Shown here: positions 15,873 to 21,297 of the stretch, one piece after another | Layout: every line of letters starts with the position of its first letter | Numbering within the stretch: the stretch's first letter is position 1 | Notes under the pieces: generated by a model | What the model saw: the letters and a program-made list of their open reading frames with translations, nothing else | Databases searched by the model: none | Told to the model about the DNA's origin: nothing | Made by a program: the position numbers and the translations under genes | IMG/VR virus record: IMGVR_UViG_3300010052_000075 | Location: 1-41,520 of that record | Reading direction: 5' to 3' (one strand) | DNA from: a virus | Lineage: Duplodnaviria; Caudoviricetes | Length of the DNA: 41,520 nt

Positions 15873-16395
15873 TGCCGTTTGCCGCCTTCATCTCGTCTGT
15901 TTCGAAAACCGTTACCCAGCCACGCTCGACGGCGTGCGCCACGATCGGCCCCGGTGGCCAACCATCGCGGGCCCAGCCATCCAGCTTCTCGACGATCAGT
16001 AGGTGTGCGCCGGCACTGAGCGCCGCCCGCTTCTTCTTCCGATTGTCGATCAGACCTTGCCAGTGGATCGGCTCAACCCCGTCAGGGCAGGGGAATGGAT
16101 CTTGCTTCCGGCGTCGCGCGCCTTCTGCCGAACCGTTAGGTTCGGTAGAAGCGGGTTGGGGGTTAGAATATATATCATTGGGGGAAGGGGTAACGGGCGG
16201 TAACGCGTTACCGGCGTTATCGGTCGTTACCTTGCGCTTGGCTTTGAACCGGCGCTGCCTCTCGGCGTTATTCGCACGCTTTCCTTCCTTGCGCGCCTCA
16301 ACATCGACCATGTCGGCCTTGACGGCAGCAACAATCATTTCCGCGCTGGCGCCGGCGGCGAGGAGGGCGTCAAGGATGGCAGGCGTCAGGCTCAC
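15697..16395 (-). CDS. Phage replication initiator (O-like)
   Basis: NAERQRRFK helix followed by VT/NA iteron-encoded linker; C-terminal W..LIDNRKKKRAALS...GW.TVF. Confidence 0.72.
   Translation of the reverse strand: MSLTPAILDALLAAGASAEMIVAAVKADMVDVEARKEGKRANNAERQRRFKAKRKVTTDNAGNALPPVTPSPNDIYSNPQPASTEPNGSAEGARRRKQDPFPCPDGVEPIHWQGLIDNRKKKRAALSAGAHLLIVEKLDGWARDGWPPGPIVAHAVERGWVTVFETDEMKAANGNGHGSNRQGAPGYSGGRDKRSGFQRALDDELAEHQARRSASPRTDDHRRIAAPDAAPL
16165..16271. repeat. Putative phage replication origin (GTAACG iterons + AT-rich tract)
   Basis: GGTAACG 16189 and 16199, CGTTACC 16206 and 16225, CGTTAT 16215 and 16266; perfect palindrome GGTAACGCGTTACC 16199-16212; TAGAATATATATCATT beside it. 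Confidence 0.7.
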
Positions 16396-16829
16396 GCACC
16401 CGCCCTCAGTACTGCGATATCAATGGCGGACAGCAGGAACCATTCGCCCACAACTCGCTTGTCGGAGAACAGGGCGTGCAGCCGCTGTTCCTCGCGCTCT
16501 GTGCCGGTTAGGGTCATCTCGATCCGCAACTTTACAGGGTTTCCCGTCTGAAGAGCGCGCAGGCGCTTTCCTACGGGGCCGCGTGTATACCCGATCTTGT
16601 AATGCCCTGCGGCGCCCTCGATTACATAGATGGTCCCGACCGTGTTGCAGCGCTCCGAGCGCGGCCTCTTTCCGCCGCCGCGATACATTTGCACCGTAGC
16701 GGTCGCGGCATCGATGCGGGCGCGATGCACTGCCGTGCGCGGCCCCGACCGGCCGAGGCACGCCACTCCTGACGCCACCCCACAGGCCGGACAGGCCACC
16801 TGCAACGCTTTTGATCTTGCTCCGCTCAT
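16392..16829 (-). CDS. Zinc-finger + GIY-YIG (T5orf172/MUG113-like) nuclease
   Basis: CPAC...C...VHRAR then IYVI...YKIGYT...RLRALQTGNP...EQRLHALF...GEWF. Confidence 0.85.
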   Translation of the reverse strand: MSGARSKALQVACPACGVASGVACLGRSGPRTAVHRARIDAATATVQMYRGGGKRPRSERCNTVGTIYVIEGAAGHYKIGYTRGPVGKRLRALQTGNPVKLRIEMTLTGTEREEQRLHALFSDKRVVGEWFLLSAIDIAVLRAGA

Positions 16830-16856
16830 AGATGCCCCTCCCATGAATTTCGGGTC

Positions 16857-17133: not shown

Positions 17134-17474
17134 GCTTCCATCCTCTCTGTCCGCTCGTGCTGCTGAGGGACGCCGGTCGCCGCATATCGGCGGGCGTCGG
17201 TTTCGATCTGCCGCTCAACGACCGCGCGAGCCTCGGCGGCCGGAAGGCCTTTGCTGTTCGTCAGGTGGCGATAGGCGTCGCGATAGCCGGGCGGGCACCA
17301 AGCGAGCTGATTGGCGCGGGCCCAGGCGCGGAACGATGCCGCGGCCTTCGCGCGCGCTTCTGGCGTCCAGGCGAGGTCGAGGGCGTGGCGCCGGCAAAGG
17401 CCGCTGACGTTCCGGCCGCGCCGGTCGAGCGCGGTGGTGCAGCCGGGGGCGGTGCAGGTGGGGACGCTGATCAT
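17130..17474 (-). CDS. Hypothetical protein with CxxxxC...CxxH zinc motif
   Basis: 114 aa, ATGA coupled on both sides. Confidence 0.65.
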   Translation of the reverse strand: MISVPTCTAPGCTTALDRRGRNVSGLCRRHALDLAWTPEARAKAAASFRAWARANQLAWCPPGYRDAYRHLTNSKGLPAAEARAVVERQIETDARRYAATGVPQQHERTERMEA

Positions 17475-18835
17475 GCCGCCAGCCTTTCAACGGCCCGGCC
17501 GTCTAGATGAGCTTTGACTGTTTCGATCCATTGGATCGCCGTTTCGAGGTCGAGGGCATTGCCGTAACCCCGCAGGAGCCCCACGCGGGCGGGAGCCGCA
17601 TGAGCCAGCGGGAATGTTCCGGGTTCAACTGCCCGCCACTTTCCATCTCGGCAGAAGAGCCAATCAGCATCTCCCCGGCTGCGGTTAGGCGCATGGGCGT
17701 CGCCTCGGCCGTCACCGATTGCAGGTCCCCGCCACCCGAAGCCGTCCGCCCAAGTTCCTGCTTGCGGGCCGCGCTCTCCGCGCCGCCGGTGATCGTTCGC
17801 GGGGTCAGATAGCCCGCCAGCTCCACGCAATTCGGAAGCTCGCTGTTCTTGTGCTCCGCTGCTCCCGCCCGGCCCCGCGAATCCGCTGCCATCGGGGTGG
17901 GCCACCCCGAGAGGAGGGCGACCGTTTTGCGGCTGCTGTCGTTGTTCCCGGCGGCGTTGTTGCCATTCTGCGCTGGCGTCCCGGCCATTGCCGTCGGCCA
18001 ACCCGTGAGCGGTGCCGTCTCCGATAGACCCATCATCCCTGGTCGGGGCGAAATCTCCCCGCGCTTGCCCCCATCGGCCGTCAATGTCGTCGGCCACCCG
18101 GCTAAGTGCGTCGCTACCGCGGTCAGGGTGTCCGCCTTGCCACGCCCCCAGCGCATCCCCGAGCTCTCCGAGTCCTCCGAGCGCGACGTCGGCCAGCCCG
18201 ACAAAATAGGCGCGCTGCCGGATGTGATGGCCGCCATGCTCGCCGCCAAGGTTGCGGCCAGCGAAGTCGGCAAAATCACGAAGAGCCCCGGCCACCACGG
18301 GATCGGGGCAAAGGTGTATGGCCCGAGATAGGCGCTCGCTCCAGACGCTTTCGCCGAAGGCTTCCAGCCCTGCGCCCGCAGCGCACAGATCGGCCGCCCC
18401 GAAGGCGTAGCCCGCTCTTTCCAGGTCAGACGATACAAGATCGATCCAGACCAAGGCATCTTTGCTCGCAACCTGCTCGCCAAGGATGACTGGAGGGCGA
18501 CGCTCGCCGATGAGCCAATGCCAGTCGGGCCAGAGGTGCCGCTCGTCGTCAAACCCATCGCCTTTGCCTGCCGCGCTGAAAGGCTGGCACGGGCAGGAGC
18601 CGGTCCAGACGGGGCGATCGTCGGCCCATCCGGCCGCGCGGAGGGCGAGGGGCCAGACGCCGATTCCGGCGAAGAAGTGGCACTGAGTAAATCCAGCAAG
18701 CTCGTCTGGTGCGATGTCACTGATTGACCTTTCGTCGACGACGCCGGGCGCGATATGGCCTTGCGCGATCAGCTCGAGCAGCCACGCCGCCGCTTTGGGG
18801 TCGTGCTCGTTGTAGAAGGCGAGGGGCGCGCTCAT
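17471..18835 (-). CDS. DNA (cytosine-5) methyltransferase, catalytic (alpha-like) frame
   Basis: FFAGIG (I), GSCPCQPFS (IV), GEQV (VI), HIRQR (VIII), LRGYGNA (X); YNE.DP motif II placed before motif I; low-complexity middle where the second frame carries the information. Confidence 0.9.
17503..18720 (-). CDS. Overprinted MTase partner polypeptide (beta-like; TRD-like GWPT repeats + motif IX-like LNP..RWLM.LP)
   Basis: 405 codons on the same strand in another frame; AAGG SD upstream; five L[SAT]G[WY][PL]T repeats and [18 protein letters not shown]. Confidence 0.75.
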
Positions 18836-18996
18836 TTCCGCCCCTCCGCATTGCAGATGACGCAGAAGCCCGGCCCCGCGCAGCCGATGATTGAGCCGTC
18901 AGGAGCGCGAAACAGGTGATGCAGGCGAACGCTCAGTTCGCGGCGCACGTAATCGCGCCGCATCTCGGTGCCGATCAAGGGCAGGCGGAACGTCAT
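18832..18996 (-). CDS. Small hypothetical protein (54 aa, C-terminal CxxC)
   Basis: Read manually MTFRLPLIGTEMRR...[17 protein letters not shown]; ATGA overlaps at both ends. Confidence 0.6.
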   Translation of the reverse strand: MTFRLPLIGTEMRRDYVRRELSVRLHHLFRAPDGSIIGCAGPGFCVICNAEGRK

Positions 18997-19586
18997 GCCG
19001 CCGCCTCGAATTTCGTCGTCTCGTTGCCCCAGACATCCCAGCCAGGTCGCGACTGGCGCGCGAAGAGTTCTACCAAGCGCGTGGCGCGTGGCATGATCCG
19101 TTCGCAGATTTCGTATTGCTCGTCGGGCTTGCGGCTATGCTCGCGCCGAACCGCGTCAATGGCATCGAGATCCTCGGTTTCGATGACGTTGCGAATGTTG
19201 TTCGCCGTCGCCGGGCTCCCCAATGTGCCGATAAGGTAAGGTTCGGTCGCGCTGCGAAGGACATAGCCGCATCCAAAGGCGGACTTCCCTCGCGGTGTGC
19301 GCTTATGCCAGGCGCCGCCGGTGACATAGCGAAAGCCCCAAGCACGAAGGAGATCAAGCGATTGCTCGAGCGAAGGCCAGCACGCCCACATCATCAACAC
19401 GCAGTCCCCCCGGCCGAGCTGCGACACGGGCATCGCGGCGAGTTCCTCCCACGTCATGGTAGGATAATGAGCATCGGGGCCCTTTCCGGCGCCCGCGGCC
19501 GAATAGGTTTCGAACCGCGTCGCCGGGTCCGCGAGGATCACGTCGTACGACAAAGGCGGTAGGGGGTCGAAAGGCCAAACGGTCAT
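18993..19586 (-). CDS. MT-A70 family N6-adenine methyltransferase
   Basis: YDVILADP, HYPTM, WGFRY, EPYLIG, REHSRKPD, LVELFARQSRPGWDVWGNE; catalytic motif reads DPAT. Confidence 0.9.
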   Translation of the reverse strand: MTVWPFDPLPPLSYDVILADPATRFETYSAAGAGKGPDAHYPTMTWEELAAMPVSQLGRGDCVLMMWACWPSLEQSLDLLRAWGFRYVTGGAWHKRTPRGKSAFGCGYVLRSATEPYLIGTLGSPATANNIRNVIETEDLDAIDAVRREHSRKPDEQYEICERIMPRATRLVELFARQSRPGWDVWGNETTKFEAAA

Positions 19587-20533
19587 CCCGCGCGCTCCGG
19601 CGGCCAAGGCAGCGCGGCGAGATTTTTCATCACCGTGCGGGGCTCGGACCAAAGCTTCGGCTCAGCCATGTCTTCCGACGGCGCCGAAGAGACGCTGAAG
19701 CGCGCCATGATCGAGGGAAGATCGGTCGGCAACTTCATGCGCGGGCCGAGCACGAGCGAGCGCTTGATTGCCTCGCAGCCCTCGCGGATCATCGCGGGCG
19801 ATGCCTGTTCGAACGCATCGGCAATGCCGGCGATCGCCTCGTCGGATGCGACATAGGGCGCGAGATACATGCTGACGATGGCGAAGCGCTCGGCAGCGCC
19901 GGGAAGGTCTATTTCGATCTGGAGCTGAAAGCGCCGCCAGATTGCGGGATCGATGCCCTTGGCGACGTTGGTCGCCGCGAAGAGGAGGCCGTCGTGCTGA
20001 TCGAACTCCTGGAGGAGCGCGATCGTGATGTTGGCAACCTCGTTATCGCACGCCTGATCGCCGAGCTTCTCGCGCGAGCGCGCCATCGCGTCGAACTCGT
20101 CGAAAAAGAGCGCGACGTCGTGGCCACCCCGGCGGGCCGCGCGGAAGAGCTTGCGGATATTGCTGCCCGTCCCGCCAAGCGAGCCGCTGATCATGGCGCT
20201 GGACTGGATGACGACCATCGGCACGCCCAGGCGCGCGGTGATATGGTGCGCCAACGTCGTCTTGCCGCAGCCGGGCGGGCCGGAGAGCAGGCATCGGCTG
20301 CGCGACTTCAGGCCAACGGCCTTCAGCTCGTCTTCGGCGTTCATTTCGAACAGCCATTGGTGCAGCGCGCCGCGGACGGGCGGCGTCAGGATCGGGGCCT
20401 CGGCGTCGCCCGGCATGACGATCACGCCATAGGCACCGAATTCCTTCTCGAGGTCGCCGCGAGAGGAGCCGGGGTCGCCCCTCAGCTCCTCCAGCGTCGT
20501 CGGCTCAATCCGTTCGGTTCGGCGGCGGCTCAT
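19583..20533 (-). CDS. AAA+ ATPase (classic clade, IetA-like)
   Basis: GPPGCGKT, FFDEFD, AATN, IDPAIWRRF. Confidence 0.9.
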   Translation of the reverse strand: MSRRRTERIEPTTLEELRGDPGSSRGDLEKEFGAYGVIVMPGDAEAPILTPPVRGALHQWLFEMNAEDELKAVGLKSRSRCLLSGPPGCGKTTLAHHITARLGVPMVVIQSSAMISGSLGGTGSNIRKLFRAARRGGHDVALFFDEFDAMARSREKLGDQACDNEVANITIALLQEFDQHDGLLFAATNVAKGIDPAIWRRFQLQIEIDLPGAAERFAIVSMYLAPYVASDEAIAGIADAFEQASPAMIREGCEAIKRSLVLGPRMKLPTDLPSIMARFSVSSAPSEDMAEPKLWSEPRTVMKNLAALPWPPERAG

Positions 20534-21297
20534 TCAGCGCCGCCGTCATCGCTGGCGCCATCGGCTGCCTTGCCCTTCTTCGGCTTCGGCTTGGGCTTCA
20601 GCGCGTCGGGAATCTCCATCCCGTCGCTGCCGAGCGCGGCGCACCACGCTTCGTCCCATGCCGCGCGACGCGGGTCGCGGGCGGGGAAGGGGTTCGACGT
20701 AACCGGCGCGCCGGCCGCGGCAGCATCGGCGCCCATGTGGCGGGCATCGTCGACCGTGGGCTCGGGCGCCGGCGGCTCGACCGGGGCCTCGCTGCCGTCG
20801 GGCTGGCGGAGCACCGTGCGGCGTCCGGCGCTGTCGGGGGCCGAGACGATGCCGACGGCCTCCATCTGCTCGATCAGGCGGGCAGCAGGGTTGTATGCGA
20901 TCTTGAAGTGGCGCTGAAGCGCGGACACCGATGCATTCTGCGAGGAAACGACATAGGCGATCGCGTCGTCGAGGTCGATTTCGGGGCTGGCAATTTCGGC
21001 GTCGGCCTCATCTTTGTCGAGCCGCTCCAGCGCCCACCGGCCGAGCGGCGTGCCGTCCAGCATGCCGAGCGCGGCCTTGTACGTGTCGAGCAGCGCCTCG
21101 CGCTCGCGGCGCTCGTGCGGATCCATCGCGCGGAGCTTGATGATTTCCTTGATCGTCTTCGTGTCGAAGCCCTGCGACTTCGCTTCGAGGAAAACGTCGC
21201 GGATATCGTCCGCGATGTTCTTCTTCTCCTCGGTGAGTCGCTCTACCCGCTCGACGAACAGGCGCAGTTGTTCGGACGCAATGGCACCTTCTGCCAT
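20530..21297 (-). CDS. GapR/DUF2312 - FtsK gamma - Rmf-like fusion protein
   Basis: aa1-80 EQLRLFVERVERLTEEKK...AKSQGFD..LLDTYKAALGM; middle ASVSALQRHFKIAYNPAARLIEQMEAVGIVS; C-term NPFPARDPRRAAWDEAW; AAGGAG SD. Confidence 0.85.
   Translation of the reverse strand: MAEGAIASEQLRLFVERVERLTEEKKNIADDIRDVFLEAKSQGFDTKTIKEIIKLRAMDPHERREREALLDTYKAALGMLDGTPLGRWALERLDKDEADAEIASPEIDLDDAIAYVVSSQNASVSALQRHFKIAYNPAARLIEQMEAVGIVSAPDSAGRRTVLRQPDGSEAPVEPPAPEPTVDDARHMGADAAAAGAPVTSNPFPARDPRRAAWDEAWCAALGSDGMEIPDALKPKPKPKKGKAADGASDDGGAE

What the first reader, a model, noticed from the sequence alone, without database searches (positions are those of the whole stretch)
17471..18835. Two-frame C5 methyltransferase whose overprinted partner carries five tandem target-recognition-like repeats
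Seen: the 454-aa frame has motifs I, IV, VI, VIII and X but low-complexity sequence where the TRD and motif IX should be. A second frame on the same strand (17503-18720, 405 aa, own SD) has five ~30-33 aa units ([52 protein letters not shown]; ~17700-18205) with divergent cores, then [15 protein letters not shown]. Established: M.EcoHK31I is a heterodimer whose motif IX polypeptide is encoded in an alternative frame inside the gene, and Bacillus phage multispecific MTases (SPR, phi3T) use tandem TRDs. Inference: a heterodimeric, modular multispecific anti-restriction MTase whose specificity cassettes can be gained or lost in an overprinted frame.
Basis: partly seen in the sequence, partly recalled or inferred. 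Interest (0 to 1): 0.85.

Follow-up and report, generated by a model that had tools for sequence, protein, structure and literature searches.

The report
Two-frame phage methylase with swappable cassettes
One phage gene is kept open in two overlapping reading frames in nearly all relatives examined, and the second frame carries a row of short modules that are swapped between phages; they likely are the DNA-recognition parts of a predicted two-chain cytosine methyltransferase, which would let a phage reshuffle the sites it shields from host restriction enzymes.

Summary
Both frames are under selection. In 148 genes picked by the catalytic frame alone, the +1 frame has 0 stops against 334 expected. 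The catalytic frame has 1 stop under the modules against 754 expected in 135 genes. Both frames are intact in 145 of 151 genes. The five units are not repeats of each other but five different cassette types from a pool of at least 226. Each is conserved in the +1 frame and is reshuffled between close relatives. Their shared head resembles the Thr-Leu motif of known recognition domains, but profile and fold searches found no link. A co-fold supports pairing (0.85, best control 0.00). Expression, activity and multiple specificity are untested. Two differences from M.EcoHK31I: its recognition domain is reported in alpha, and here the motif order is II-III-I-IV. This scan noted the family before on other DNA; my ten literature searches did not find it described.

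The parts
17471..18835 (-). alpha ORF, 454 aa: catalytic chain, motif order II-III-I-IV-VI-VII-VIII, about 170 aa low-complexity filler, then motif X
   Evidence: motif names by comparison with fetched enzymes and from recall
17503..18720 (-). beta ORF, 405 aa, +1 frame: S/T-rich arm, dual-coded segment, five cassettes, motif IX-like segment
   Evidence: (PHROG 1008 and 31772)
18728..18733 (-). Shine-Dalgarno-like GAAAGG, 7 nt before the beta GTG, inside alpha codons E35-R36
   Evidence: the rare AGG codon is used at this Arg in 47 of 141 genes against 24 of 1018 other Arg codons
18713..18817 (-). alpha N-terminal motif II/III-like segment that precedes motif I
   Evidence: model residue 1 aligns to M.HhaI 37 while alpha 41-69 aligns to M.HhaI 4-32; sequence-profile support weak
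18659..18676 (-). alpha motif I (FFAGIG)
18575..18601 (-). alpha motif IV with the catalytic Pro-Cys, invariant in 79 aligned homologues
18373..18447 (-). segment constrained in both frames (beta 92-116 over alpha motif VII); predicted strand pairing between the two chains
   Evidence: differences spread over all codon positions; beta core 40-41 with alpha 142-145 of the aligned chain
18230..18367 (-). insertion of about 45 codons between alpha motifs VII and VIII, open in both frames
   Evidence: this long form in 1 of 231 DNA loci, a like segment in 28 of 120 beta homologues; modelled as helices in alpha and hairpin plus helix in beta
18203..18226 (-). alpha motif VIII (HIRQRAYF)
18103..18201 (-). 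cassette 1 (type 5; 28 members, 24 different neighbour pairs)
18007..18102 (-). cassette 2 (type 21; 10 members, one in Rhodobacter phage RcLkye)
17911..18006 (-). cassette 3 (type 0; 158 members in a set biased towards this type by the query; 20 of 118 in the alpha-picked set)
17818..17910 (-). cassette 4 (type 26; 8 members)
17695..17817 (-). cassette 5 (type 22; 10 members, first in the array in the 9 others, last here)
17590..17634 (-). beta motif IX-like segment [15 protein letters not shown]
   Evidence: best profile alignment falls on motif IX of M.SPR but is weak (E 0.31); 20 codons before alpha motif X in 102 of 116 genes; touches motif X in the model
17552..17572 (-). alpha motif X (RGYGNAL) followed by the terminal helix
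   Evidence: E 0.019
18993..19652 (-). context: neighbouring MT-A70 family adenine methyltransferase in the same leftward gene run

Best explanation
The gene is held open and conserved in two frames of one strand and likely makes two chains of one DNA cytosine-C5 methyltransferase: alpha supplies the catalytic domain, and beta is predicted to supply motif IX plus a row of five different, exchangeable recognition cassettes, each of which would add a target site. SHOWN: both frames are selected to stay stop-free; conservation alternates alpha, both, beta, alpha along the gene; the cassettes come from a shared pool and are exchanged in frame at their common head. PREDICTED: the chains pair, with motif IX on motif X. 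INFERRED: beta is started from its own ribosome-binding site (about 0.9); the cassettes are recognition domains (about 0.8); more than one is active in the same enzyme, one at a time on the catalytic core as is recalled for the Bacillus phage enzymes (about 0.75 given the former); exchange is by recombination at the conserved head; the purpose is to pre-methylate phage DNA against host restriction systems.
For: Stops in +1 over alpha codons 35-150: 0 against 334 in 148 genes, while upstream of the beta start they occur normally (212 against 234). Alpha stops under cassettes: 1 against 754 in 135 genes. Both frames intact in 145 of 151 alpha-picked genes. Inside cassettes, differences fall on beta third positions (0.44 against 0.17 and 0.13; 27 types), in the catalytic part on alpha third positions (0.42 against 0.13). 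1065 units form 226 types; the same type occurs twice in 1 of 282 betas against 47 expected. 29 of 41 gene pairs with at least 95% DNA identity in the catalytic start differ in their array. A contig about 90% like the window keeps cassettes 1, 4 and 5 and has 137 other bases in place of 194, in frame, with both joints at cassette heads. A matrix of cassette heads ranks a Thr-Leu site first among 374-492 windows in each of M.SPR, M.rho11s, SPbeta MtbP, Dcm and the MM1 enzyme. Co-fold score 0.85, best of 3 controls 0.00; the mark was reached by 116 of 157 solved and 2 of 215 mismatched pairs; runs agree in at least 68% of contacts, partner pLDDT at least 49. Halves of a split enzyme can pass by likeness to solved monomers. 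Cassettes lie between motifs VIII and IX, where recognition domains lie (PMC5944983 passages).
Against: No expression, activity or methylome data. Beta profiles match nothing relevant in the PDB nor SPbeta MtbP. The beta model has low confidence in the cassettes (mean pLDDT 60, pTM 0.29) and no fold match. In one search the Thr-Leu sites were chosen by my eye, 6 of the 13 ranked below second (down to 12th), and the best-window shuffle test was not significant for Dcm (p 0.75), MM1 (0.29) or SPR (0.057); it improved when the Pro/Leu position was masked. The head has Thr-Pro where known domains have Thr-Leu. The co-fold places only cassette 1 with confidence. Lack of duplicate types can also arise from deletion between identical copies. 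Some types are position-biased.
Confidence: 0.6

Rival explanations
1. Two-chain methyltransferase, but only one cassette position (first, or next to motif IX) is engaged; the others are a stored reserve moved into place by recombination.
For: Only cassette 1 is placed confidently in the model; some types sit mostly first or always last; one-cassette forms exist.
Against: Types found mostly in the middle are as conserved in beta as the others (types 0, 1, 3); a silent reserve would not need to be translated in frame; the swap seen changes only middle cassettes.
Confidence: 0.15
2. Two-chain enzyme whose cassettes do not read bases one site each: together they give relaxed or broad CC-type methylation, or bind other proteins.
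For: No profile or fold link to known recognition domains; other prophage C5 enzymes are reported to have relaxed specificity (PMC3925955 and PMC5537653 passages; those are about 700 aa proteins, not shown to be this family).
Against: Head motif resembles the Thr-Leu site and the position fits; a pool of over 200 distinct, separately conserved, non-repeated types fits distinct targets better than a generic binder.
Confidence: 0.17
3. One chain made by two programmed frameshifts (alpha I-VIII, then beta cassettes and IX, then alpha X).
For: The motifs are colinear along the DNA and the IX-to-X spacing is fixed at 20 codons in 102 of 116 genes.
Against: It would need neither an open beta arm of 115 codons before motif VIII (0 against 334 stops) nor an open alpha under the cassettes (1 against 754), nor the ribosome-binding-site codon bias.
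Confidence: 0.05
4. Beta is a shadow frame left open by high GC content; no second protein.
For: GC is 65%; the beta arm is low-complexity and follows alpha; window-alone P for the open arm is 0.14.
Against: The third frame has 7 stops over the cassette region in the window and 3-21 in every complete alpha-picked gene; variation follows beta codons.
Confidence: 0.01

Closest known systems
   Same: Second chain encoded inside the first in another frame; alpha has I-VIII and X, beta has motif IX.
   Different: Its predicted recognition domain is reported in alpha and it has one target; it is not reported to have cassettes. Here alpha's middle is unconserved filler and the candidate recognition units are in beta. 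Homology to it could not be tested.
Bacillus phage multispecific methyltransferases M.SPR, M.rho11s, M.H2, SPbeta/phi3T MtbP (sequences fetched; PMC8936443 passage)
   Same: Phage enzymes with several short recognition domains in tandem before motif IX; their Thr-Leu sites score highest with the cassette-head matrix.
   Different: Single chain, one frame, canonical motif order, a few domains; no profile-level similarity to beta.
Streptococcus phage MM1 orf13/orf14, annotated 'C5 methyltransferase alpha subunit / beta subunit' (DQ113772)
   Same: A phage record already annotates a nested +1-frame beta that starts at motif III; its arm weakly matches the same PHROG 1008 (E 5e-4).
   Different: Its alpha keeps the Thr-Leu units and motifs IX and X; its 141-aa beta ends in a different segment that follows motif VIII in monomers (by eye).
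M.AquI (PMC3404938 passage)
   Same: Natural split: distal variable region and motif IX on the small chain.
   Different: Motif X goes with the small chain; the passage does not describe a nested frame or cassettes.
Domain movement (DOMO) of recognition domains in Type I and IIG specificity genes (PMC3077401 abstract)
   Same: Recognition domains move between positions and genes, probably by recombination at flanking repeats.
   Different: Much larger domains (recalled), two or three slots, other enzyme class, one frame.

Membership tests
C5-cytosine DNA methyltransferases | Motif I (FxGxG) and motif IV (Pro-Cys), VI, VIII | tested here: met
   (profile E 1.2e-15 to M.HhaI). Motif VI reads GEQV rather than ENV.
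C5-cytosine DNA methyltransferases | Large-domain fold | tested here: met
   alpha model: M.HhaI Z 12.5, rmsd 4.3, 198 aligned; top Foldseek rows nearly all C5 enzymes
C5-cytosine DNA methyltransferases | Canonical linear order I to X in one chain | tested here: not met
   II-III precede I; IX is in another frame. Exceptions to this order are known (PMC5944983), so this marks a variant, not exclusion.
C5-cytosine DNA methyltransferases | Makes 5mC in DNA | not testable with these tools
   no activity data
M.EcoHK31I-type heterodimers | Beta encoded within alpha in an alternative frame and carrying motif IX | tested here: met
   motif IX assignment by position, eye and model
M.EcoHK31I-type heterodimers | Recognition domain in alpha | tested here: not met
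   alpha's middle is about 50% conserved where beta is about 80% and unstructured in the model
M.EcoHK31I-type heterodimers | Both chains needed for activity | not testable with these tools
   co-fold supports pairing only
M.EcoHK31I-type heterodimers | Sequence homology to M.EcoHK31I | not tested
   its sequence was not found among my hits and was not fetched
Multispecific C5 methyltransferases (Bacillus phage type) | Tandem 30-45 aa units between motifs VIII and IX | tested here: met
   internal units mostly 29-45 aa
Multispecific C5 methyltransferases (Bacillus phage type) | Units homologous to known recognition domains | tested here: inconclusive
   motif ranking positive; profile and fold searches blank
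Multispecific C5 methyltransferases (Bacillus phage type) | Each unit confers its own target | not testable with these tools
   indirect only:
Multispecific C5 methyltransferases (Bacillus phage type) | Single polypeptide | tested here: not met

The most novel reading that the evidence does not exclude
A large, mostly unannotated family of phage methyltransferases keeps its whole specificity module in a hidden second frame and draws on a shared library of hundreds of 30-45 residue recognition cassettes (226 types seen, about 500 by a rough Chao1 estimate) that are plugged in and out at a common head, giving each phage its own set of methylated sites: a natural combinatorial code for C5 methyltransferase specificity, on a catalytic chain with a motif order not among the natural permutations surveyed in PMC5944983.
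Probability: 0.55. Interest if true: 0.85.

Novelty: new variant of a known kind. Interest (0 to 1): 0.72.

Why it matters
If true, thousands of phage genes (about 4400 IMG/VR stretches and about 910 GTDB stretches hold the alpha patterns, estimates) are annotated as one odd or damaged methylase while the part that sets their specificity is missed; the three isolated-phage records I opened with annotation list only alpha. The cassettes would be the largest natural set of short, interchangeable C5 recognition domains I know of, making the sequence-to-target code directly testable by swapping one cassette at a time, and giving a fast route for phages to track host restriction systems. It is also a clear case of a gene about 1.2 kb long held open in two frames while accepting in-frame module exchange.

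Tried and rejected
Profile searches of beta against the PDB (nothing relevant), against SPbeta MtbP, Pfam and NCBIfam and Foldseek of the beta model gave no link. ESM Atlas gave only unnamed viral clusters and a low recognition value. hhalign did not match alpha 1-40 to motifs II-III. Natural single-frame fusions: L070, L091, L140 and L165 look fused but are single frameshifts that leave motif X or IX out of frame; I found no complete fusion, but did not run a search aimed at one. Literature leads that failed: the Paracoccus YGGCCR prophage enzyme is an m4C enzyme; the Serratia BZS1 paper has no heterodimeric C5 enzyme; PMC8788219 does not mention methylases; no Kagunavirus paper held the terms. 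No RNA holder was listed for the stretch. Word depletion in the phage (CTAG, GGCC lowest) cannot be tied to this enzyme. The promoter scan was at chance level. Rows dropped: 48 of 334 betas were not parsed into units, among them short one-cassette forms, so one-cassette genes are undercounted; 7 of 160 alpha-picked loci were cut by contig ends and 2 were duplicates; the alpha-stop test used 135 of the 149 complete pattern-matched loci. The alpha query alignment was built largely from loci first found with beta, though the scan used only alpha motifs. REBASE and the 1980s-90s original papers could not be searched; supplements were not opened.

Full report
Setting. The window is a 41.5-kb virus record. 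It holds a temperate phage: terminase, portal, protease and capsid on the left, repressor at 22.2 kb, integrase at 30.9 kb, then host-like genes. A GapR-like gene and 65% GC suggest an alphaproteobacterial host (inference). The gene lies in a leftward run just downstream of an MT-A70 adenine methyltransferase. No restriction endonuclease family was found among the neighbours scanned; a small T5orf172/MUG113 gene lies about 630 bases downstream and was not studied.

Observation. Confirmed on the minus strand. Alpha is 454 aa; beta is 405 aa in the +1 frame with GAAAGG 7 nt before its GTG. The five heads lie at 18195, 18096, 18000, 17904 and 17811.

Is the second frame real? Beta has at least 3960 relatives among 7993 scored candidates and matches two PHROG families. 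To avoid circularity I collected 160 loci with alpha motifs only (best 80 of 586 viral and best 80 of 495 genomic). Seven were cut and two duplicated. Of 151 distinct genes, 145 have both frames intact and 6 are broken by a frameshift, stop or truncation. Synonymous shuffling of alpha codons 35-150 predicts 334 stops in the +1 frame of 148 genes; none is seen, whereas upstream of the beta start 212 are seen against 234 expected. Shuffling beta codons under the cassettes predicts 754 alpha stops in 135 genes; one is seen. The Arg under the ribosome-binding site uses AGG in 47 of 141 genes against 24 of 1018 elsewhere. So beta is very likely translated from about alpha codon 35-42, and alpha must read through to motif X. 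This excludes a shadow frame and makes double frameshifting unlikely.

Which frame carries what? Base differences fall on alpha third positions over motifs I-IV (0.42 against 0.13), are spread evenly near motif VII, fall on beta third positions in cassettes (0.44 against 0.17 and 0.13, mean of 27 types) and in motif IX, and return to alpha at motif X. The two chains therefore trade roles along the DNA in the order of an ordinary C5 enzyme, each carrying filler where the other works.

The units. In 286 parsed betas (of 334) there are 1065 units of 226 types, 0 to 9 per gene, mostly 3 or 4. The window's five are five different types, each found in other genes with other neighbours. A type is repeated within a gene in 1 of 282 cases against 47 expected; deletion between identical copies could add to this. 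Arrays differ in 29 of 41 pairs whose catalytic start is at least 95% identical. One public contig about 90% like the window keeps cassettes 1, 4 and 5, but has 137 other bases in place of the 194 covering cassettes 2 and 3; the difference is 19 codons and both joints lie at cassette heads. The head DNA is the conserved part of the junctions, so recombination there is the likely route, as proposed for domain movement in Type I systems (PMC3077401, abstract).

Are they recognition domains? They lie between motifs VIII and IX and have the length of the units in Bacillus phage multispecific enzymes, which I fetched. A matrix built only from cassette heads ranks a Thr-Leu site first in each of M.SPR, M.rho11s, SPbeta MtbP, Dcm and the MM1 enzyme, among 374-492 windows; all 13 sites I had picked by eye rank in the top 12. 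Against this, shuffle tests were significant only for some enzymes, and no profile or fold search links beta to a known protein. I put this step at about 0.8 and simultaneous multiple specificity at about 0.6 overall.

Structure. The alpha model matches M.HhaI (Z 12.5, rmsd 4.3, 198 aligned). Its first residue aligns to M.HhaI 37, while alpha 41-69 aligns to M.HhaI 4-32, so the segment that follows motif I in M.HhaI comes before it here: order II-III-I-IV. This is not a circular permutation; the survey in PMC5944983 (passages) found natural permutations only in the variable region, with a search that required X before I. The co-fold of alpha with beta 74-395 scored 0.85 against a best control of 0.00; 116 of 157 solved and 2 of 215 mismatched pairs reach the mark; runs agree in at least 68% of contacts and partner pLDDT is at least 49. 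Motif IX touches motif X, the dual-coded segment pairs across chains, and only cassette 1 is placed. Split halves can pass by likeness to solved monomers, so this supports but does not show binding.

Comparison. It works like M.EcoHK31I in layout and like the Bacillus enzymes in its array, but fails a defining feature of each: the recognition part is not in alpha (PMC2836561 and PMC3404938 passages), and it is not one chain. A pneumococcal phage record already annotates a nested beta subunit, of a different build. My searches found no paper on this family, but the library lacks most older and subscription papers and REBASE. Papers seen as passages: PMC2836561, PMC3404938, PMC5944983, PMC8936443, PMC5537653, PMC6536676, PMC7556043, PMC3925955; abstract only: PMC3077401; term count only: PMC8788219. 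Motif numbering and the one-domain-at-a-time mode of the Bacillus enzymes are recalled. Earlier notes of this scan describe the same family on other DNA; they are not counted as evidence.

Verdict. A real two-frame gene with a shuffled cassette array; most likely a heterodimeric, multispecific phage C5 methyltransferase (0.6). New variant of a known kind; interest 0.72.

Noticed in passing
window 18230-18367 (-): About 45 codons inserted between alpha motifs VII and VIII, open in both frames; the two readings touch each other in the co-fold model. Present in a subgroup (28 of 120 beta homologues); role unexplained.
   Followed up: partly
L255:401-1558 (phage MM1, DQ113772): A second kind of nested +1-frame beta in a C5 methyltransferase gene, also starting at motif III; 102 plasmid records match it, most under genes annotated only as dcm. 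Nested partners may be common across C5 methyltransferases.
   Followed up: partly
window 18993-19652 (-): MT-A70 adenine methyltransferase directly upstream, separated by one 54-aa ORF.
   Followed up: no
window 20530-21297 (-): GapR-like DNA-binding domain fused to an FtsK gamma domain, next to an AAA ATPase.
   Followed up: no
window 16392-16844 (-): Zinc finger plus T5orf172/MUG113 domain protein downstream of the methyltransferase.
   Followed up: no
L087, L090, L098, L132, L189, L212, L216: Minimal one-cassette forms (alpha about 250-290 aa), including lytic E. coli phages; the best material for a first activity test or structure.
   Followed up: partly
L070, L091, L140, L165: Single frameshifts that join alpha and beta in one frame; L070 gives motifs I-VIII, three cassettes and IX in one chain without X. 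Could be assembly errors or decay.
   Followed up: partly
window 17698-17811, run X2: One low-depth contig joins across cassette 5, suggesting a relative that lacks it; what lies between is not known.
   Followed up: no
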